In this document: positions 4,901 through 40,728 of the stretch, in pieces
Numbering within the stretch: position 1 is the first letter of the stretch
Layout: every line of letters starts with the position of its first letter
IMG/VR virus record: IMGVR_UViG_3300032770_000013
Span: 1 to 64,000 of that record
From: a virus
Length of the DNA: 64,000 nt
Reading direction: 5' to 3' (one strand)
Program-made: the position numbers and the translations under genes
Notes under the pieces: generated by a model
Database searches by the model: none
Seen by the model: the letters and a program-made list of their open reading frames with translations, nothing else
Told to the model about the DNA's origin: nothing

Positions 4901-7117
4901 TTAGTTCGCCGACGAATGCCCGGAGGCGTTGCAGATTACGCTCGCGCCGGTCGTCACATCTGCGGCGTAGAGCCCGTTGCCTGCTGTGGTCCACGTCAGC
5001 GCGTCGACGTCGCTTTCGGTATCGCCGCCACCGGCGGGGGCGATCAGCGTCATCAGGGTCGTGCCGCCACTGCCGTCTTGGATGCTGACCAGCGTAGCGG
5101 TGCCGCTGGAATTATTGCAACTGATGTGAGTCGGGTAGATGTGCTGGGAGGAAACAGCCGCAATGAGCTGCGTGCTCGACGTTCCCGTCATCGCCGCCGT
5201 GGTGCCCTTGACCAGCGTGTGGCTCAGGATCGAGCCGGGGGCGCCGATTGCTCGGCCTTGGTTGTCATATTGCGCGGCGGTTTGCTGGCCGTTAGTCGGC
5301 GACGGCAGTGTGGAGTTGTAGACACCCCCATCAAGGATCGAATCCGCCGCTGCCGTGCCCGCCGCTTTCGTTCCAGTAAGATTGGTCAGATCGACCACGG
5401 CACCGGAGGCAAGAGAACCGGAGGCATAAGCACCGGACGAGACGGCGCCCGAGGCAAAGGCACCGGATGCCACTGCGCCGCTGGCAATCGCTCCAGAAGC
5501 AATCGAAGCACTCGCCGCCTTGATCGCAACGGCGCCCTGGTCACTCGCGATGACGACAGGAGAGCTATTTGCACTCGTTGCAGACCCATTAGCATTCGAA
5601 TTGGTGACATACGCATTGACCGCAGGAACCGCAATTGCGCTCGGTGCCGTACCATAGTTCGAGGTCGCCGACCACGCGACCATGTTGGTGCCGTTGGTCA
5701 AGCCGATGGCGGTGCCGGTCGAGGGGAAGGCCGACCCGAAGCTTGACGACGTGCCGCCAGAACCCCCGCCCGCCTTTACGTTGACCTCAAGATAACCGGC
5801 CGAATCGGTCTGCAACGCAACGCTCTGGCCGTTCGAGGGCGTGACGCCACCGGAATTGTAGACGCCGCCGGCGACCTGCATATTCGTGGGGGCACTTCCA
5901 GCCGCGACGGTGGCAATGCCCCAGGTCGAGATCGTATTCGGATCGACCTTGCCAATGGCAGTCGAGCCGCTCGCTTGTAACGTCGCTTGCACGGCAAGCG
6001 TGCCAGTTCCGACGATGACAGGGTGACCGCTGGAATCGGTGGAGATATTGCGAACGTCCGTGCCGTCAGAGCCGCCGATGAGAACGGGATTGTTGCCGAT
6101 CGCCGATCCGCTGGCTACCTCGCCCGCGACTTGGAGCGCGCCGTTGCCATCAACGTGGGCCATAGCAACGGTGCCGCCCGAGTAGAAGCCAACGGCGAGC
6201 ATATTCGTCGGAATCGCGCTGCTTGTGAGGCCCCAAGTCGCGATGGTGTTTGGATCGACTTTGCCGATGGCGGTGGAACCGCTCGCCTGCAATGTAGCCT
6301 GCACGGCAAATGTACCAGTGCCGACCACAACGGCCTGACCAGACGAATTGGTCGCAAGTGAGCGCGCATCCGTTCCATCCGAACCCGCGATCAGAACCGG
6401 ATTACCTGCAAGTGCAGATCCGCTCGCAGCGGCGCCGGTCGCCAGCACATACCCAAGCCCGCTCGCAACCTTCCAGTTATCCACATTCCCAGATGCCGTG
6501 CCATCAACCGTGCCGCCCATCAGTACCGGAGGATTGGCCGCCGCCGTACCAGCGGCAGTCGGACCATAGACCGCGCCGCCGCCGCCAGATCCACCACCAC
6601 CGCCACCGGCACCAGTAGCCAAGCCGGTGCCACCTGACATCACCACCACATTCGAGGCCGAATCCCCGGCCTGGTTAATGCAATTCAGGTAAGTATTGGA
6701 GCCAACCGTAAAGGCAAACCATGAACTCGGCTGAATGACATCTTCATTGGCAACTGCGGTTCCAGACCCAACCGTCAGCTTGCACGATACCGCCGTAGTG
6801 CCGGTGTTGTAAGCAACAACAACCGCAGGAGATCCGCTCGGTAACGCATGACTGGCCGAGGCGGCACCGGAAGTCACCGTCGCGTAATTGCTCGAGGGAG
6901 CAAACCCACTGACCGAGGCCGAAACCGTAGCGTTGACGCAGAGCTTCCCGTTCGTATCGATCGTTACCGAGCCATAGGATCCGGCCGCATAGGTCGTAGC
7001 GGGACTGCCGCAGGAAGAAAGGATAAATCCCTGCGCTGCTCCCTGCGCAGAGGCACCTCCCATGGAGGCGAGAAGGCCGGCAATAACGAAAGAGAGAGCG
7101 GCAAAAATCCGGATCAT
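4901..7117 (-). CDS. Large A/G/S-rich structural protein with internal repeats
   Basis: 738 aa; duplicated NPVLIxGSDGTD...VQATLQASGSTAIGKVDPNTI unit. Confidence 0.55.
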   Translation of the reverse strand: MIRIFAALSFVIAGLLASMGGASAQGAAQGFILSSCGSPATTYAAGSYGSVTIDTNGKLCVNATVSASVSGFAPSSNYATVTSGAASASHALPSGSPAVVVAYNTGTTAVSCKLTVGSGTAVANEDVIQPSSWFAFTVGSNTYLNCINQAGDSASNVVVMSGGTGLATGAGGGGGGSGGGGAVYGPTAAGTAAANPPVLMGGTVDGTASGNVDNWKVASGLGYVLATGAAASGSALAGNPVLIAGSDGTDARSLATNSSGQAVVVGTGTFAVQATLQASGSTAIGKVDPNTIATWGLTSSAIPTNMLAVGFYSGGTVAMAHVDGNGALQVAGEVASGSAIGNNPVLIGGSDGTDVRNISTDSSGHPVIVGTGTLAVQATLQASGSTAIGKVDPNTISTWGIATVAAGSAPTNMQVAGGVYNSGGVTPSNGQSVALQTDSAGYLEVNVKAGGGSGGTSSSFGSAFPSTGTAIGLTNGTNMVAWSATSNYGTAPSAIAVPAVNAYVTNSNANGSATSANSSPVVIASDQGAVAIKAASASIASGAIASGAVASGAFASGAVSSGAYASGSLASGAVVDLTNLTGTKAAGTAAADSILDGGVYNSTLPSPTNGQQTAAQYDNQGRAIGAPGSILSHTLVKGTTAAMTGTSSTQLIAAVSSQHIYPTHISCNNSSGTATLVSIQDGSGGTTLMTLIAPAGGGDTESDVDALTWTTAGNGLYAADVTTGASVICNASGHSSAN

Positions 7118-19421: not shown

Positions 19422-20036
19422 CTACTTGAAGTTTACGATTCCAAAGCGGCCGAATGTCGGCCTAAAATCACCGATGCCGATCAAGCGACCAGCACTTTCA
19501 ATCGTTTCGCGCAAGGCATTGTGATCGACGTATTCCGGCAGCATCACGAGAAGATCAAACGTGACCTTCCAGCCGGCGCGCAAGGCAGGCCGCACGCGGT
19601 TGATACCTTGGCGCTGAATCATAACGCGCCGTTTATCCAAATAATCCCAATCCTTTACGCCGAGAGTGGCGAGCGGACTGGTGACGACAATGGCGGCCTT
19701 GAACAGGTCCATTGCGGACTTCCGCGGTGACCGCGGATCTTGCCGGAATTTCGCCGCGTTGATGATTGAGCCGCGAAGATACTCGCCGGGGACACAGATT
19801 TCACCGGCGTCGTTCCGATAGACGTAGGATTCTACGTCATCGGTCTTTTTGCCTTTGGAATTTTTAGCGGCGCGGGCTTTTTCATCGACCGCCTCGCTAT
19901 TCCATCTGTGCATTAAAAGATCGGCGGCCCCTTGAATCGTCACGCGAACCGGATATGGCTCGCTGTGAGAGATGACTTCGTTGCCACCGGAAGTCGGCTC
20001 AGAAATGTGGATAACTTTAGCTTTAGTTGCAGTCAT
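19422..20036 (-). CDS. Stand-alone RAMP/Cas7-like RNA-binding protein (Vipr-like)
   Basis: VTIQG..DLLMH, VPGEYLRGSI, RVRP and C-terminal G-loop GIGDFRPTFGRF; flanked by pentamer tracts. Confidence 0.75.
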   Translation of the reverse strand: MTATKAKVIHISEPTSGGNEVISHSEPYPVRVTIQGAADLLMHRWNSEAVDEKARAAKNSKGKKTDDVESYVYRNDAGEICVPGEYLRGSIINAAKFRQDPRSPRKSAMDLFKAAIVVTSPLATLGVKDWDYLDKRRVMIQRQGINRVRPALRAGWKVTFDLLVMLPEYVDHNALRETIESAGRLIGIGDFRPTFGRFGIVNFK

Positions 20037-20060: not shown

Positions 20061-20149
20061 GGAGACCTCACCGCACCGATGCTTGCCCTAGCTTGCCCAA
20101 CGCGACCTGACCAAGCCGCACCAAAGCGCGCCGTAAGCAAAAGGTCTCC
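20061..20149 (-). ncRNA. GGY-NN pentamer tract B closed by a GGAGACC/GGTCTCC stem
   Basis: About 14 units inside a 7-bp inverted repeat. Confidence 0.75.
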
Positions 20150-35575: not shown

Positions 35576-36079
35576 TTAATTTGGCCTCGCAAACTCGCCA
35601 TGAGGCCGATTAGCAGCATCCACATACGCATGATGAGCCGCAATCTCGGTATCGAAAAGTCCCAAATGTATCCGTTTATTCTCGTGTTGTATGTTTGCGA
35701 GCCATTTCTGCGATGCTTTGTGCCAACTCACGCCCTTAAATTTCGAACTCTTCGGTCTAGACCATTGTTTCCGGTTATGCTGATTTTGCGATTTTGTCGC
35801 GGCACGAAGGTTATCAATTCGATTATCGTCTCTAACACCATTTTTGTGATCGACTTCAAATTCAGGCCATTCACCAGTCTCAAAAAGCCAAGCTATCCGA
35901 TGTGCCTGATAGACTTTGCCTCGCAGTTCAATCTCGCGATATCCTTGACCGTTTTTGTGACCTGCTTCAGCGCCGACCGAACATCTGCGTGCAGGAGCGG
36001 CCCTCCAATAAAAAAGGCCAGTCTCCGGTTCGTACCGAAGCCAAGACATGAGTTCGTTGCGAGTTAGACTTTCAGCCAT
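35576..36079 (-). CDS. HNH-AP2 homing endonuclease
   Basis: AHRIAW..VDHKNGVRDDNRIDNLR; FKGVSW..HLGLF. Confidence 0.88.
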   Translation of the reverse strand: MAESLTRNELMSWLRYEPETGLFYWRAAPARRCSVGAEAGHKNGQGYREIELRGKVYQAHRIAWLFETGEWPEFEVDHKNGVRDDNRIDNLRAATKSQNQHNRKQWSRPKSSKFKGVSWHKASQKWLANIQHENKRIHLGLFDTEIAAHHAYVDAANRPHGEFARPN

Positions 36080-36089
36080 GGCGATAAAT

Positions 36090-37058
36090 TTATGTCTTCA
36101 CTAATGGTAAGAAGGAAACGATTGTCGGCTGGACGTTCCCGGACGCGCCACTAAAAGCATTCCGGACGGTAACTGACGTAGTGATGTTGGCGTAACCTGT
36201 CGCGCTATTCAGTCCAGATCCACGGATGACGGGGGCTATGCCTGCGCTATACGGCGAAACTGAGGTGGTAAGTCCGAGATCATGTTGGTGCCCGCTATCT
36301 GTCGAGGTCGCAACAGCGGTATGGTTATGCAGTTGCGGATTATCATCGCCGCCGGCCGAGGCCATCGCACTGCCGTTAATGCCACAAACGCTAGGACTCA
36401 ATCGGCCCGTGCCGACACCATCATAGCCGACTCTCGCCCGCGCGAGCTCGTCCGGCACGGCAAAGGTTAATCCCGGTGTGCCTCCGAAGGCGTTTCCGAG
36501 AACTGAAGCCAGCGCCGGATATGTTGAATTGTTGTAAACTGCGCCGTTCTTGATGAGATAAGGAATGACCGTGCACAGCAGCATCCACTTGGGATAATAG
36601 GTTGCACCCTGTAAATCATATGCAGTGCCCGGGTCTGGCGCGTTGACAAAGTCCATATTCGTGCCATCGTTGAAGACGTGGCACTTCTTTCCATAGGGTA
36701 TCCCAATCGCATTCCCAGCCCCGCCGCTCAGCAGTTGCACGCCATGCGTCGTCGGTGTGCAAAGGTTCTGCACAATGAAGAAGCCAGCCCGTGGGAAAGT
36801 AACTTGGACGTCACCGGTAAGCACTCCGGTAAAGACAATCAGCGAGCTTTGCGATTGATACGGTCCGCTCCAAGCCGCTCCGCTATTCGGCGGCGTGCTC
36901 AGCGTCACCGGCCCGCTCGATAGGCTGATCGTCGCTACGTTGCCGAAGAGGCTGTCAATTGCTCCAAAGTTGGCATTATTGGGCAAATCCCAGGTGCCCA
37001 CGTCCGAGCCCCTTGTCGGCTGGTAGATTTGGATATTGGCTGTCTGTGGATCTGCCAC
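36090..37058 (-). CDS. Tail fibre / tail collar-domain protein
   Basis: YPALASVLG..FGG..TFAVPD collar motif; NVQPTIV..VKT end. Confidence 0.7.
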   Translation of the reverse strand: MADPQTANIQIYQPTRGSDVGTWDLPNNANFGAIDSLFGNVATISLSSGPVTLSTPPNSGAAWSGPYQSQSSLIVFTGVLTGDVQVTFPRAGFFIVQNLCTPTTHGVQLLSGGAGNAIGIPYGKKCHVFNDGTNMDFVNAPDPGTAYDLQGATYYPKWMLLCTVIPYLIKNGAVYNNSTYPALASVLGNAFGGTPGLTFAVPDELARARVGYDGVGTGRLSPSVCGINGSAMASAGGDDNPQLHNHTAVATSTDSGHQHDLGLTTSVSPYSAGIAPVIRGSGLNSATGYANITTSVTVRNAFSGASGNVQPTIVSFLPLVKT

Positions 37059-37070
37059 GGGTTATCCTTC

Positions 37071-37781
37071 CTAAGCGCGCGGCGGCGTGGCAATCGGGTT
37101 TGGTTGTTTTGGCGTCCAACCTTGCGACTGATACCGTTTGCGCATTTCCTCAGTGTTTGCAGATGCCCACAAATCCTGATAGTGTTTTGACCAACTCGAC
37201 GAACCTTGCGGATCGTCTGTAAGAGCGCCGAAGTCTTTCAAATAGCCATAACCAAATATGAGAGATTCTGCTAGGAAAAGGTCCGGCAGATACAAACTCA
37301 AATAAGTTTGCGGGTTAGTAGCACTCAATGGCGTTGGTCTAATTGTCCCGATAACCTCCATCGTGTATGCCGCATCTGGAGGTGGCCCTACAATGATTGT
37401 CTGGTCCGTTATCATCGCGTAGTATTGCGGGACCGATGGCGTTGTTGTTGCCGTCTCGTTGCCCCACATCCAATCGATGAACTCGCGCGAGGTCGGCACA
37501 AGCTGAACGCGATTGCTGGAGTTGAGCGGATAAAAGACATTCATGCTCTCAGTAACAACAAACCGTCCTTGGTCCTGAGGTAGCGTGAAGCTGCGACTAT
37601 TAGGTGTAAGAGTCGCGCTGGAATCTACAATTACAGAATTTAAAATATCTAATTCTCTGAGGATTCTTTGCTCGGAATCGTCGATCACATTCGGCAAAAA
37701 TGTTTGAAAATTCGGGTCATTCTGAGGAATGACCAGCATGTTGGCCAGCGACTGAACGTATGTCGTATAGGTAAGGCTCAT
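37071..37781 (-). CDS. Head-tail adaptor protein
   Basis: EQRILRELD, PQYYA..VGPPPD and PDLFL motifs. Confidence 0.7.
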   Translation of the reverse strand: MSLTYTTYVQSLANMLVIPQNDPNFQTFLPNVIDDSEQRILRELDILNSVIVDSSATLTPNSRSFTLPQDQGRFVVTESMNVFYPLNSSNRVQLVPTSREFIDWMWGNETATTTPSVPQYYAMITDQTIIVGPPPDAAYTMEVIGTIRPTPLSATNPQTYLSLYLPDLFLAESLIFGYGYLKDFGALTDDPQGSSSWSKHYQDLWASANTEEMRKRYQSQGWTPKQPNPIATPPRA

Positions 37782-37800
37782 ATAACTTCCCGATAAATAG

Positions 37801-37915
37801 GAAAGGCCGCCACGTTAGCGACGACCTTTCCACCCCTATCAGACCGGAACTCACCAGAACTCACCCGAGCTAACCATAACCGACCTGATCTCACCGCATC
37901 TCGTCTCACCATAAC
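37801..37915 (-). ncRNA. GNY-NN pentamer tract F with 3' hairpin (putative guide RNA)
   Basis: 17 in-phase units then GAAAGGTCGTC/GGCGGCCTTTC stem. Confidence 0.75.
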
Positions 37916-38103
37916 AAATGTTGACGAGAAAGAAATTTGGCGAGGATGCGCCGGACGGCCTCGGAACGGGTAGGCTTGTCCTCTTGAGTTTGCCTCCATT
38001 GATCGATCGCACCGCGTAATTTCACAGGCAATCTTATCGCGGTCACAGGGTCTTGACCTGTCTGCGGCCTTCCTCTTTTTCGTACTACAGGTATTGACCC
38101 CAT
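37906..38103 (-). CDS. Ribbon-helix-helix transcriptional regulator
   Basis: KRGRP.TG.DP..AIRLP..IDQW..PTRSEAVRRI. Confidence 0.7.
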   Translation of the reverse strand: MGSIPVVRKRGRPQTGQDPVTAIRLPVKLRGAIDQWRQTQEDKPTRSEAVRRILAKFLSRQHLLW

Positions 38104-38149
38104 AGCCTATTTGTAATACACTTATGCCGCTGAAACAAGACGGCAGAAG

Positions 38150-38581
38150 ATGACCTACGAAGAATACATCCGTTCGCCGCAATGGCACGCAAAACGCGAA
38201 CTTGCCCTTGCAAGGGACGGATTTCGTTGCCGAGCATGCGATGCAACCGAAAATCTTGAGGTTCACCATCGGCGCTATCCCAAAATTCTTGGCACGGAAA
38301 AAGTAGACGATTTGACAACGCTCTGCGGCGGCCAAAACGGCTGCCACATGGCCATCACTAATCTCCTTCGATCTCGCAGACATGCCTTGGCGACCATCGA
38401 GGCTTCCACAACAGTCCGAATCAGCATTGGACGCATAGAGGTATCTCATGAACTACAAGAACCTGAAATTTCGGATACGCAGCGTTGCACCCCTGCTCAT
38501 GCACAACGGGCAACTGGCGGACCCACTGAACCACCATGTGAAAGAAATGCGCAAGATTACGAGCAAGCGGATCAAAACTGA
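38150..38581 (+). CDS. HNH endonuclease
   Basis: YEEYIRSPQW..RDGFRCRAC..LEVHHRRY..LTTLC..CH. Confidence 0.8.
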   Translation: MTYEEYIRSPQWHAKRELALARDGFRCRACDATENLEVHHRRYPKILGTEKVDDLTTLCGGQNGCHMAITNLLRSRRHALATIEASTTVRISIGRIEVSHELQEPEISDTQRCTPAHAQRATGGPTEPPCERNAQDYEQADQN

Positions 38582-39014
38582 TTCCGACTTGGAACAACTT
38601 GCCAAGCTGGAATGGTTCGGCTCGCTTTACATCAGCAACGGCGTCCCATGCTTGCCTGGAGAACTCGTAGAGGCGACGTTTGTCAACGCCGCCAAAAAGA
38701 CCAAACGAGGCCAACAAGCTAAAGCCGGCATAATTTCGGACGGCTTTTGGCCAGTTGAATACGATGGGCCAAAAGACTTGGAAGAAATGTGGAAAGATGG
38801 ACGGTTTCGGCTCACTACCGCCGTTCGCGTATAGCGCAACAAGGTTATGAGGACACGACCGATCTTTCGACAGTGGGAATCCACTATCCAAATCGACTAC
38901 CTGCCGGATCAATTGGGCGTCAACGAGATCACAGATATCGTCGCCATCATGGGACGATTGATTGGCTTCGGCGATTGGCGTCCGCGTTTTGGACGCTTTG
39001 AAATCGTCTCTTGA
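38448..39014 (+). pseudogene. Second RAMP/Cas7-like gene interrupted by an in-frame TAG (38832-38834)
   Basis: PLLMHN..LPGE; frame continues RNKVMRTRPIF..GFGDWRPRFGRF to TGA at 39014. Confidence 0.75.
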
Positions 39015-39045
39015 CCGCATCGCCCCACGTCACCCTTAGCCCCGC

Positions 39046-39612
39046 TTATTCCTCGATCTGCATGGGAACCATGCGGCCGACCTCCTTAACCACGCGAGGC
39101 CGCACGCGGTCATCCTCCCGCGTCATCTCGCCCTTCGGCGTTTTGCCGAGGCGCTGTTCGGCTTCCCGGATTTGGCGGTTGGCGAGTTGCTCATTCTCGG
39201 TCCGGGCCTCATCGGTCAACTCTTTCGGCCGCTCCATGAGGATCAGGCCATCCTTGATGATGTGCGGCTTGTCGTAGCCCGGAGGCAACGGCACCCAATC
39301 CGGATGCTGCCGCGGGTCGACGGGCAACCAGCCCTGCTCTTCCATGCGGGAGAGATAGAACGGATCATCGGCGCCGACGTTGCTGAAGCGCTTCCATTCC
39401 ACCGATACGTCGGACGGAATCTTATCGAGATTGACCGCATCGAACGGATTGACCTGGACCGAGGCGCTACGCTGCCGGGTGCGTTTCCGCGGCGCATCGT
39501 GCTCGGCTACATGCTCGGTTTCCCGGGCATCGGGCGGCGGTGCTGCCGCATGTTCCGGTGTGCGATCGGCATTGCGACGCTGACGCCGCTGGGCAACTGT
39601 CTCGGGTTCCAT
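39046..39612 (-). CDS. Conserved head-module protein
   Basis: GW.PV..HP and GLILMERP motifs; follows the scaffold gene. Confidence 0.65.
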   Translation of the reverse strand: MEPETVAQRRQRRNADRTPEHAAAPPPDARETEHVAEHDAPRKRTRQRSASVQVNPFDAVNLDKIPSDVSVEWKRFSNVGADDPFYLSRMEEQGWLPVDPRQHPDWVPLPPGYDKPHIIKDGLILMERPKELTDEARTENEQLANRQIREAEQRLGKTPKGEMTREDDRVRPRVVKEVGRMVPMQIEE

Positions 39613-39624
39613 GATCTTTTCCTT

Positions 39625-40728
39625 TTAATATCCAACTCGGCCAATTTTTCCTTCAGCCGTAGCCTTCACAAGCTCGGCCGCATAGGTGCCAAAGGCCCGC
39701 TTGCGGTGTGCTGCCTCATCCTCGCCCTGCTTGGCCGGATAGGAGAACAGCGCGACTTCCTGCTGCTGCGGATTAAGCTGAACCCGCTGGCGCTGGCTCT
39801 GGCCGGTAGACGCAGACGGCGCCTCGCGCGTAACCGGCGCCGATGGCACCGCACGTTGCTGGGTCTGCCGCTGGACTGGTTGCTTGGTGGCTTGCTGGTG
39901 CGCCTCCTCGCCTGCCGGCTTGACATCAGCCGCAGCCGATACCGGCGCACGCGCGCCAATGCTTTCCTCGATCACCCTGAAATAATCCGGGGTATCTGTC
40001 GCAAATCCCTGTTCGATCGCCGCATAATGACCTTTCATCATCGCGGCGTTCTTTTTCGCATCGCCGCCGACTTGCACCGGAACACATTCAGGATGAGCCC
40101 GCAGCCACGCCTGAGAGGCCGGCGTGTATCCAGACACGTATTGCTCAAACGGTGAAAGGCGCGTTTCGACCTGAGTAGTCGTGCGCGTAGCATCTGCGGC
40201 CTGCCGCGCCGCCTTGTTCTCCAAGGCAACTTTATCTGCCTCCAACCGGTCGATCGCCGCGGCAAGCTTGGCGGCTTTGATCTGCGCCTTGGCTTCCTTC
40301 GCAATCTCGCCGGCTTCCTTGGCGTGGATGACTTCGGCTTCCACCGCCTCTAGTTCGCGGGTAGCCGCTTCAAGCCGCGCCGTGACGCCGTTCAACTGGC
40401 TGCTGGCGGCTTCCTCGACGGCTTCCTGCGCCCGCTGCTCGCTTTGCTGGGCCCGCTGTGCCGCTTCATTAGCTCGCAACCGCTCGGCTTGGGCGGTCTG
40501 CTGGGCGGCAATGCGATCCTGCTTTTCCTTTTCCAGCGCCGCCTTCAACGCATCCGCCGCCTCGTCCGCGGCATTCTTTGCCGGCGGCGCTACTGGAGTC
40601 TTTGGCTCAGGCTCCGGTGTCTTGGCCTCAGTCACCTTCGCCGGCTCGACAACCAGATCGCCGTCGACCTCGACCTCGATAACCGTGTCGTCCTCAATCT
40701 CGACTTCGCGTGTGCCAGATTCGGCCAT
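39625..40728 (-). CDS. Putative capsid scaffolding protein
   Basis: Acidic N-terminus, coiled coil, YA..K C-terminus. Confidence 0.65.
   Translation of the reverse strand: MAESGTREVEIEDDTVIEVEVDGDLVVEPAKVTEAKTPEPEPKTPVAPPAKNAADEAADALKAALEKEKQDRIAAQQTAQAERLRANEAAQRAQQSEQRAQEAVEEAASSQLNGVTARLEAATRELEAVEAEVIHAKEAGEIAKEAKAQIKAAKLAAAIDRLEADKVALENKAARQAADATRTTTQVETRLSPFEQYVSGYTPASQAWLRAHPECVPVQVGGDAKKNAAMMKGHYAAIEQGFATDTPDYFRVIEESIGARAPVSAAADVKPAGEEAHQQATKQPVQRQTQQRAVPSAPVTREAPSASTGQSQRQRVQLNPQQQEVALFSYPAKQGEDEAAHRKRAFGTYAAELVKATAEGKIGRVGY

What the first reader, a model, noticed from the sequence alone, without database searches (positions are those of the whole stretch)
37638..37915. Tract F decodes to the adjacent adaptor gene, whose own copy is recoded at first codon positions
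Seen: the NN string of tract F is AT GA GA GC GA CA CG AT TA CG GA CT GA CC CT AG. Read as codon positions 1-2 it is compatible with I-D-D-A-E-Q-R-I-Y-R-E-L-D-P-L-S. The adaptor gene just downstream encodes IDDSEQRILRELDILN at 37638-37685 (22/32 gapped matches by hand count). Four mismatches are synonymous switches to AGA (x2, guide CG) and TTA (x2, guide CT), which are unusual in this GC-rich genome. Inference: the guide skips the wobble base and targets the homologous allele in related phages, while the resident allele escaped through the few synonymous changes possible at position 1.
Basis: partly seen in the sequence, partly recalled or inferred. Interest (0 to 1): 0.95.

Follow-up and report, generated by a model that had tools for sequence, protein, structure and literature searches.

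The report
VIPR guide aimed at rivals' adaptor gene
A phage carries a guide RNA of the CRISPR-like VIPR system (described in 2026) that spells the most conserved stretch of a virion gene as rival phages carry it, while the phage's own copy next door is altered at the letters the guide reads; it is a clean new example of a known system and shows how a phage can spare itself.

Summary
Tract F (37836-37915, minus strand) is 16 five-base units G-N-Y + NN, followed by a hairpin tail of the type found behind the nearest Vipr2 homologues. It is therefore a VIPR guide RNA (vrRNA; bioRxiv 10.64898/2026.04.26.720920).

Read by the published 1-nt-skip rule, its NN string matches the neighbouring SU10-type adaptor gene at 22/32 (69%, below the published 80% target threshold). 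It matches the same site in 24 distinct relatives at 24-30/32, with 19 of them at 80% or more, and a MAG contig at 31/32. A 26-base gapped pattern gave 18 exact hits in IMG/VR, all at the homologous adaptor codons. A shuffled pattern gave none.

The footprint is the most conserved stretch of the gene in relatives, and it is where the resident copy diverges most. Four of the ten mismatched letters come from rare synonymous switches (AGA x2, TTA x2). The other six come from amino-acid changes and from guide letters that rarely match any allele.

Caveats:
- The cassette's own vipr gene carries a premature TAG, so present activity is uncertain.
- No near-isogenic relative with or without the cassette was found.

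The scan has noted the same guide-beside-altered-self pattern on other DNA. This is a new member of a known kind.

The parts
37836..37915 (-). vrRNA F repeat tract: 16 units G-N-Y + NN. The guide letters are AT GA GA GC GA CA CG AT TA CG GA CT GA CC CT AG.
   Evidence: Its first units overlap the stop codon of the RHH-like ORF.
37793..37835 (-). vrRNA F 3' tail: GGGGTG, then a 14-bp hairpin (37831-37800, loop TAAC), then a U-rich run. It ends 12 nt before the adaptor ATG.
   Evidence: Hairpin found. The same GGGGTG + hairpin tail follows the vrRNAs of the nearest Vipr2 homologues (L035, L038, L039, L053), with 5 compensatory pairs.
37638..37685 (-). Resident (spared) copy of the target site: adaptor codons 33-48, IDDSEQRILRELDILN, 22/32 match to guide F.
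37611..37688 (-). Patch (codons 32-57) where the resident adaptor gene diverges most from relatives. It is also the GC3 minimum of the gene (0.12 at codons 38-53, against 0.52 for the gene).
37071..37781 (-). Head-to-tail adaptor gene (236 aa, SU10_adaptor PF24175).
37906..38103 (-). Small RHH-like ORF (65 aa) directly upstream of the tract on the same strand. A homologue lies divergent from the HNH-vipr pair in L036, L037 and L056.
   Evidence: Pfam RHH_1 is only E 0.1, so the name is tentative.
38150..38581 (+). HNH-like accessory gene (vap), overlapping the start of vipr2. This overlap is conserved in most Vipr2-family loci.
   Evidence: PHROG HNH families at E 2e-8. Pfam HNH is below threshold. 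Synteny.
38448..39011 (+). vipr2: a Vipr (RAMP) gene of 187 codons, interrupted by TAG at 38832-38834 (codon 129), where most of the 28 aligned homologues, and the alignment consensus, have Gln.
   Evidence: The family profile hits the SUSP1 Vipr structure 36pp_D at E 1.3e-44. TAG is an ordinary stop codon in this phage.
19422..20036 (-). vipr1 of the first, intact VIPR locus (context). It is a possible trans supplier of Vipr protein for vrRNA F.
20063..20132 (-). Guide B of the first locus (context). It shows the same logic: 26/28 to the vipr gene of relative G001 and 19/28 to its own vipr1, which has AGA where the rival has CGT.

Best explanation
Tract F is a VIPR guide RNA (vrRNA). It would be transcribed on the minus strand, behind a small RHH-like gene and just before the adaptor gene.

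In a VIPR complex, Vipr protomers bind each G-N-Y triplet and present the NN pairs. These pair with double-stranded DNA at two of every three bases, skipping the wobble base. This mechanism is taken from the published work and was not tested here.

The 16 NN pairs spell I-D-D-A-E-Q-R-I-Y-R-E-L-D-(L)-L-S. This is the most conserved motif of the SU10-type adaptor gene as related phages carry it. The guide is therefore aimed at rival phages, or prophages, of the same family, whose late structural gene would be silenced or, with the HNH partner, cut.

The carrier's own adaptor copy, about 150 bp away, falls below the published target threshold (69% against 80%). It differs at 10 of the 32 letters the guide reads. 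Four of these are the rare synonymous switches CGN->AGA and CTN->TTA, which are the only silent changes a wobble-blind guide can see.

Shown here: the anatomy, membership of the family, the target assignment, and the statistics of self against non-self.

Inferred: expression of the RNA, loading onto a Vipr protein, the effect on rivals, and that the recoding was selected as self-protection.
For: Anatomy:
- The tract has 16 units with G1 and Y3 invariant.
- The tail hairpin has the same form as the tails of the nearest Vipr2 homologues.

Family:
- The Vipr2 family profile matches the solved SUSP1 Vipr at E 1.3e-44 over its full length.
- Most of the 80 family loci show the order HNH-like gene, vipr, vrRNA arrays.

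Target:
- There are 18 exact IMG/VR hits to the 26-base gapped pattern, all in adaptor homologues at the same codons. A shuffled pattern gave 0.
- There are 3 further exact hits in MAG contigs, one of which scores 31/32.
- In five whole relative genomes the adaptor site is the top hit at 26-29/32, against shuffled maxima of 21-23.
- The match is wobble-aligned. In the footprint, major-allele frequency among relatives is 0.86 at position 1, 0.96 at position 2 and 0.53 at position 3.
- The footprint is the most conserved 16-codon window of the gene. It is also the only part of the family profile that detects the SU10 adaptor structure 7z47.

Self-sparing:
- The resident allele is the lowest of 25 alleles.
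- The resident's excess divergence peaks over the footprint: the top 10 of about 220 windows all start at codons 32-42.
- Both TTA codons and 2 of the 3 AGA codons of the gene lie at codons 39, 42, 44 and 47. By genome codon usage this has P of about 1e-4, computed post hoc.
- Relatives keep CGN and CTN at those columns; at R42, 0 of 24 use AGR.
- A second guide in the same genome (B) shows the same pattern against vipr.

Published rule and thresholds.
Against: - vipr2 has a premature TAG at codon 129, which removes the C-terminal G-rich loop. TAG is a normal stop here (13 of 61 ORFs) and no suppressor tRNA is among the 31 tRNAs. The cognate protein is therefore probably not made.
- The tract lies on the strand opposite to vipr2. 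In most of the 80 family loci the called vrRNAs lie on the vipr strand, directly flanking the gene.
- Only 7 of the 16 units are canonical GGY.
- No sigma-70-like promoter was found for the tract.
- The nearest relatives have only about 69% identical adaptor proteins. Recoding after acquisition therefore cannot be told apart from a guide that could only settle in an already divergent genome.
- Six of the ten mismatches are not synonymous.
- The patch is also AT-rich at wobble positions (GC3 0.12), which a wobble-blind guide does not explain.
- No expression or binding data are available.
Confidence: 0.75

Rival explanations
1. Relic. The cassette was a working anti-rival VIPR unit but is now decaying. 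vipr2 is knocked out by the TAG, the canonical vrRNA downstream of vipr is gone, and tract F and the altered adaptor allele are fossils of a past conflict.
For: There is a premature TAG at a position where homologues have Gln, and TAG is an ordinary stop here. Only 35 nt separate the vipr2 stop from the next gene, where relatives carry vrRNAs. Only 7/16 units are canonical GGY.
Against: All 16 units keep G1 and Y3, and the tail hairpin is intact. The guide still matches living alleles at up to 31/32. An intact Vipr1 is encoded 18 kb away, and use of solo vrRNAs by a Vipr supplied in trans is published. A single TAG in a metagenome assembly may also be a minority variant or an error, and reads could not be checked.
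Confidence: 0.2
2. RNA-guided homing or allele drive. The guide, the HNH-like nuclease and the linked resistant adaptor allele form one selfish unit. In a mixed infection the rival's adaptor gene is cut about 150 bp from the cassette's insertion point and repaired from the carrier genome, so that the cassette and its immune allele are copied into the rival, as with free-standing homing endonucleases.
For: - The target lies in the gene directly next to the cassette.
- The HNH-like gene is a conserved partner of this Vipr clade.
- The cassette fills a variable slot between two genes that hold other inserts in relatives.
- In the family, 9 of 112 guides have partial matches within 4 kb at p<=0.01, against about 1 expected.
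- Guide B also targets the rival copy of a locus gene.
Against: - Codons 1-31, between the cassette and the target, are not unusually divergent, so there is no co-conversion tract reaching from the insertion point.
- There are no boundary repeats.
- No second genome with this cassette at this site was found.
- The HNH assignment rests on PHROG matches only.
- Published VIPR activity is silencing; nuclease action is only predicted for some types.
Confidence: 0.1
3. Self-regulation. The partial (69%) match lets the guide bind the phage's own adaptor gene weakly and tune its expression.
For: The best match in the phage's own genome is the adjacent gene. The tract sits immediately upstream of that gene on the same strand.
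Against: The guide matches foreign alleles far better than its own. The self match is within the range of shuffled guides and below the published 80% threshold. The published surveys found no self-targets above that threshold.
Confidence: 0.03
4. Chance resemblance between a five-base repeat and a conserved peptide motif.
For: The self match alone (22/32) is reached by 5.7% of shuffled guides somewhere in the window.
Against: There are 18 exact 26-base hits, all at one homologous site, against 0 for the shuffled pattern. By my own rough estimate, far fewer than one exact hit to 26 fixed bases is expected by chance in the collection. The adaptor site is also the top hit in each of five whole relative genomes.
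Confidence: 0.005

Closest known systems
VIPR systems (Vipr RAMP protein + vrRNA + vap); Escherichia phage SUSP1 and the Pseudomonas fulva prophage; bioRxiv 10.64898/2026.04.26.720920 and 10.64898/2026.04.26.720927
   Same: - A Vipr homologue.
- A guide made of tandem five-base units with a constant triplet and variable NN, capped by a structured 3' tail.
- The 1-nt-skip, wobble-aligned match to a coding sequence of a competing phage.
- A self match below the 80% threshold.
   Different: - Position 2 of the triplet is relaxed (G-N-Y, with only 7/16 GGY).
- The guide lies on the opposite strand from vipr, behind an RHH-like gene.
- The accessory gene is HNH-like, sits upstream of vipr and overlaps it. 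In SUSP1, by contrast, vap1 appears to lie after vipr.
- The vipr gene carries a premature stop.
- The target is a virion structural gene of related phages, not a satellite recombinase or a lysogeny regulator.
Solo vrRNAs and self-sparing guides of SUSP1-family phages and F5 satellites; bioRxiv 10.64898/2026.10.15.759431
   Same: The guide is aimed at relatives' copies of a sequence the carrier also has. Self-match scores are lower than non-self scores. The guide may work with a Vipr protein supplied in trans. The footprint is wobble-aligned on near-invariant codon positions.
   Different: In that work the self-sparing guides target vrRNA and vipr sequences. Here the target is the adjacent adaptor gene. 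Term searches of that preprint (synonymous, arginine, leucine) found no mention of escape through six-fold-degenerate codons, and it states that escape requires amino-acid-determining changes.
Free-standing homing endonucleases of T4-like phages (knowledge of the field, not tested here)
   Same: A nuclease-type gene sits between conserved genes. Its target lies in the neighbouring gene of relatives that lack the insert. The carrier's own copy is protected by sequence differences.
   Different: Specificity here lies in an RNA guide. Cleavage, homing and co-conversion are not shown, and no co-conversion tract is seen between insert and target.
Class 1 CRISPR-Cas effector complexes (Cas7 backbone)
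   Same: A RAMP protein polymerises on a guide RNA, with thumb insertions that break the guide-target duplex at regular intervals (as described).
   Different: There is no CRISPR array and no adaptation genes. The skip is every third target base rather than every sixth. The guide is hard-wired in a five-base repeat. The system is carried by a phage.

Membership tests
VIPR system | Vipr protein: a small RAMP homologous to characterised Vipr proteins | tested here: met
   The profile of Vipr2 and 28 homologues hits the SUSP1 Vipr chain 36pp_D at E 1.3e-44, covering positions 5-187 of 188. Vipr1 hits the same chain at E 2e-7. Caveat: the vipr2 reading frame is broken by TAG at codon 129.
VIPR system | vrRNA of 9-16 tandem five-base units with a conserved GGY (or related) triplet and variable NN | tested here: met
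   There are 16 units, with G1 16/16, Y3 16/16 and G2 7/16. Other loci of the same Vipr clade also carry G-N-Y units.
VIPR system | Conserved structured 3' tail capping the repeat tract | tested here: met
   The tail is GGGGTG + a 14-bp hairpin. The same motif and hairpin follow the vrRNAs of L035, L038, L039 (two copies) and L053, with 5 pairs showing compensatory changes in 6 sequences. This is a small sample.
VIPR system | Natural targets found by the 1-nt-skip rule at >=80% NN match, wobble-aligned, in competing mobile elements | tested here: met
   19 of 24 distinct relative alleles score 26/32 or more, and a MAG contig scores 31/32. There are 18 exact 13-unit hits against 0 for the shuffled pattern. 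The skip base is codon position 3.
VIPR system | No self-target at >=80% NN match | tested here: met
   The best hit in the phage's own 95,988-bp genome is 22/32 = 69%.
VIPR system | Accessory vap gene next to vipr | tested here: met
   An HNH-like ORF overlaps the vipr start here and in most of the 80 family loci.
VIPR system | vrRNA expressed, bound by Vipr, and the complex binds or silences matching DNA | not testable with these tools
This needs small-RNA sequencing and binding or repression assays.
VIPR type III (nuclease-associated) | Placement in the type III clade of the Vipr phylogeny, with its characteristic vap | not tested
   The preprint defines types by a Vipr tree and synteny, and its tables are not held here. 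An HNH domain is named among the Vap examples for types II, III and VII. The assignment here is only a lead, based on the HNH-like neighbour.
Homing endonuclease-like mobile unit | Target in the adjacent gene of insert-less relatives, with a resistant resident allele | tested here: met
Homing endonuclease-like mobile unit | Evidence of mobility: the same insert in other genomes, or a co-conversion tract from insert to target | tested here: not met
   No other genome with this cassette beside an adaptor gene was found. Codons 1-31 are not unusually divergent. There are no boundary repeats.

The most novel reading that the evidence does not exclude
The guide, the HNH-like nuclease gene and the linked resistant adaptor allele form a single selfish unit that spreads by RNA-guided homing. 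In a mixed infection it would cut or silence the susceptible allele of rival phages and be copied, together with its antidote allele, into their genomes. That would be a programmable analogue of phage homing endonucleases and a natural gene drive among viruses.
Probability: 0.1. Interest if true: 0.85.

Novelty: new member of a known kind. Interest (0 to 1): 0.55.

Why it matters
VIPR was described only in 2026, and its natural targets have so far been mapped mainly for two clades. This locus adds a well-controlled natural case outside the two best-mapped clades; the nearest named homologues of its Vipr2 come from Alphaproteobacteria.

The guide sits on the deepest-conserved motif of a virion structural gene. 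It covers alleles from phages whose adaptor proteins are only 45-69% identical to the carrier's.

The locus also shows what self-protection looks like in sequence. The carrier's own copy is changed at the letters the guide reads, partly through Arg CGN->AGA and Leu CTN->TTA. These are the only silent changes a wobble-blind guide can detect. The published work argues that wobble skipping prevents escape by mutation, so this route through six-fold-degenerate codons is a testable qualification of that claim.

The placement of guide, HNH-like gene and resistant allele side by side raises the question of whether such cassettes are mobile weapon-plus-antidote units.

Tried and rejected
- **TRAP-like array.** My first idea was a TRAP-like array of triplets bound by a ring protein.
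- **Rfam.** At gathering thresholds it found only tRNAs.
- **GenBank phages.** blastn of 36000-40000 against GenBank phages gave no match.
- **Vipr2 as a single query.** A search of viral contigs with Vipr2 alone found no close relatives. The alignment-based scan did find them.
- **Closer relatives.** The metagenome scan for closer adaptor relatives found nothing above 69% identity. The comparison 'with and without the cassette' in near-isogenic phages was therefore not possible.
- **Resident allele.** The pattern of the resident allele gave 0 hits in viral contigs, with the phage's own record left out.
- **Reciprocal targeting.** Relative G001's own guides do not hit this genome.
- **Generalisation.** The guide of locus L101, which half-matches its neighbouring gene, gave 0 exact hits in viral contigs.
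- **Insertion scars.** No boundary repeats were found around the cassette.
- **TAG reassignment.** Rejected: TAG ends 13 of 61 long ORFs and there is no CTA-anticodon tRNA.

Full report
**What is there.** On the minus strand, 37915->37836 reads as 16 five-base units: GTTAT GGTGA GACGA GATGC GGTGA GATCA GGTCG GTTAT GGTTA GCTCG GGTGA GTTCT GGTGA GTTCC GGTCT GATAG. Position 1 is always G and position 3 always a pyrimidine. Position 2 is G in 7 units, mostly in alternate units. The tract is followed by GGGGTG, a 14-bp hairpin (37831-37800) and a U-rich run that ends 12 nt before the ATG of the next gene. That gene (37071-37781, minus strand, 236 aa) is an SU10-type head-to-tail adaptor (PF24175, E 4e-21). 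The window is the first 64 kb of a 95,988-bp IMG/VR virus record rated complete, and it carries 31 tRNA genes.

**What kind of thing it is.**
- VIPR consists of a small RAMP protein (Vipr) and guide RNAs (vrRNAs) made of GGY/NN five-base units with a structured 3' tail.
- Vipr sequesters each GGY and presents the NN pairs.
- The NN pairs base-pair with double-stranded DNA while every third target base is skipped. In natural targets the skipped base is usually the wobble position.

The window has two Vipr genes.
- vipr1 (19422-20036) is intact and is flanked by five tracts.
- vipr2 (38448-39011) lies 530 bp from tract F.

A profile of Vipr2 and its homologues matches the solved SUSP1 Vipr protein at E 1.3e-44 over its full length. 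About 1,000 homologues of about 188 aa exist. In most of 80 family loci from viral contigs, the order is an HNH-like gene overlapping the vipr start, then vipr, with one or more vrRNAs on the vipr strand directly flanking it. The tails of the nearest homologues' vrRNAs share the GGGGTG-plus-hairpin form of tract F, with compensatory changes in five pairs. Tract F is therefore a vrRNA of the Vipr2 clade.

It is unusual in four ways.
- It lies on the opposite strand, behind a small RHH-like ORF.
- No vrRNA follows vipr2.
- Only 7/16 units are full GGY.
- vipr2 has TAG at codon 129, where most of the 28 aligned homologues have Gln. TAG is an ordinary stop in this phage (13 of 61 long ORFs), and no suppressor tRNA is present.

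**Is the decoded match real?**
- The self match is 22/32, as stated, and is the best in the genome. By itself it is not beyond chance: 5.7% of shuffled NN orders reach 22 somewhere in the window.
The 13-unit pattern (26 fixed bases) has 18 exact matches in IMG/VR. Every one lies in an adaptor homologue at the same codons. The same dinucleotides in shuffled order give none.
- Three more exact hits lie in MAG contigs, one scoring 31/32.
- Across 24 distinct relative alleles the full guide scores 24-30/32 (median 28; 19 at or above the published 80% threshold). The resident allele, at 22/32 (69%), is the lowest of all 25.
- In five complete relative genomes the adaptor site is the single top hit at 26-29/32, against shuffled maxima of 21-23.
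- The guide decodes to IDDAEQRIYRELD(L)LS, which is the consensus of the relatives.
- Units 14 (second letter) and 16 rarely or never match any allele, so the effective guide is units 1-13 and 15.

**Why this site.** Among relatives the footprint (codons 33-48) is the most conserved 16-codon window of the gene at codon positions 1-2, at 0.87-0.90. Within it, major-allele frequency is 0.86 at position 1, 0.96 at position 2 and 0.53 at position 3. It is also the only part of the family profile that detects the SU10 adaptor structure 7z47, weakly. The guide covers alleles of phages whose adaptor proteins are only 45-69% identical to the carrier's. This matches the published logic of wobble-aligned guides on constrained codons.

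**Self-sparing.**
- The resident gene is as similar to relatives as they are to each other everywhere except codons 32-57. The ten windows with the largest excess divergence all start at codons 32-42.
- Of the ten mismatched letters, four are synonymous first-position switches (Arg39 and Arg42 as AGA, Leu44 and Leu47 as TTA). The rest come from A36S, Y41L, L46I and S48N, and from guide letters that rarely match any allele.
- AGA is 10.3% of Arg codons and TTA 6.2% of Leu codons in this phage. Both TTA codons and two of the three AGA codons of the gene lie in these nine codons. The post hoc P is about 1e-4.
- Relatives keep CGN and CTN at these columns. At R42, 0 of 24 use AGR. Alternative codons make up 18/116 inside the footprint against 118/368 outside it.
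- Guide B of the first locus shows the same pattern: 26/28 to the vipr gene of relative G001, and 19/28 to its own vipr1, which has AGA where the rival has CGT.
- Term searches of the third preprint found no mention of this silent escape route. It states that escape needs amino-acid-determining changes.

**What remains open.**
- None of the 32 relative loci from the viral collection has the cassette in the flank fetched around its adaptor gene. Of five whole relative genomes, only G001 has any Vipr, and it lies elsewhere in the genome.
- No near-identical phage was found. I therefore cannot tell recoding after acquisition from a guide that could only settle in an already divergent genome.
- The divergent patch is also AT-rich at wobble positions (GC3 0.12 against 0.52 for the gene). 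A wobble-blind guide does not explain this.
- Because vipr2 is truncated, the guide may be served by Vipr1 in trans, since use of solo vrRNAs is published. It may instead depend on rare read-through, or it may be a relic.

**A bolder reading.** The target lies in the gene next to the cassette. The cassette carries an HNH-like gene that is conserved in this clade. It fills a slot that holds other inserts in relatives. In the family, 9 of 112 guides have significant partial matches within 4 kb, against about 1 expected, and several of these are wobble-aligned with long ORFs. This resembles free-standing homing endonucleases, with an RNA supplying the specificity. Against it:
- No co-conversion tract links the insert to the target.
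- There are no boundary repeats.
- No second copy of the cassette was found at this site.
- The HNH call rests on PHROG matches only.

I give this reading about 10%.

**Verdict.** The system is a member of the published VIPR kind. The locus is a clean natural example of a guide aimed at rivals' copies of a structural gene, with an altered self copy beside it. Other notes of this scan report the same pattern on other DNA; I did not test those.

Noticed in passing
window 38832-38834: vipr2 has an in-frame TAG at codon 129, where most of the 28 aligned homologues have Gln (a single CAG->TAG change). TAG is otherwise a normal stop in this phage, and no CTA-anticodon tRNA is among its 31 tRNAs.
   Followed up: partly
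window 37611-37688 (adaptor codons 32-57): The patch that diverges from relatives is also the GC3 minimum of the gene (0.12 at codons 38-53, against 0.52 overall). Wobble positions are not read by the guide, so this AT-richness is unexplained.
   Followed up: partly
window 20063-20132 (guide B) and 19891-19932; relative G001 5072-5113: Guide B of the first VIPR locus matches the vipr gene of relative phage G001 at 26/28 but its own vipr1 at 19/28. Its own copy uses AGA where the rival has CGT.
   Followed up: yes
loci L039, L040, L044, L046, L052, L053, L057, L062, L101: In 9 of 112 distinct vrRNAs of the Vipr2 family, the guide has a partial match (67-81%) within 4 kb of itself that beats all 100 shuffles. 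Four of these are wobble-aligned with an ORF (L039, L044, L046, L101); those in L039 and L101 exceed 1 kb. This hints that guides beside a half-matching neighbour gene recur in the family.
   Followed up: partly
L159:879-926 (contig CAVPNP010000038.1, uncultured Alphaproteobacteria MAG, 945 kb): This is the best target found (31/32). It lies in an adaptor homologue near the end of a 945-kb alphaproteobacterial MAG contig. It may be a prophage, which would also hint at the host group, or it may be a binning artefact.
   Followed up: no
L071-L076 and L082 (Vipr2-family loci): Some family members carry long arrays (19-45 units) in which almost no unit is GGY but nearly all are G-N-Y. In this clade, position 2 of the triplet seems free.
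   Followed up: no
window 35576-36079 (minus strand): A free-standing HNH_3 + AP2-domain endonuclease gene (PHROG 99, E 1e-66) sits between the tail-collar gene and the 759-aa virion protein gene. It is a classic homing-endonuclease-type insert, two genes away from the VIPR cassette.
   Followed up: no
L010:3807-4001: In relative L010, a 64-aa ORF that looks RHH-like by eye (not checked with any tool) lies directly upstream of the adaptor gene on the same strand. This is the same position as the RHH-like ORF here, but with no tract or vipr.
   Followed up: no
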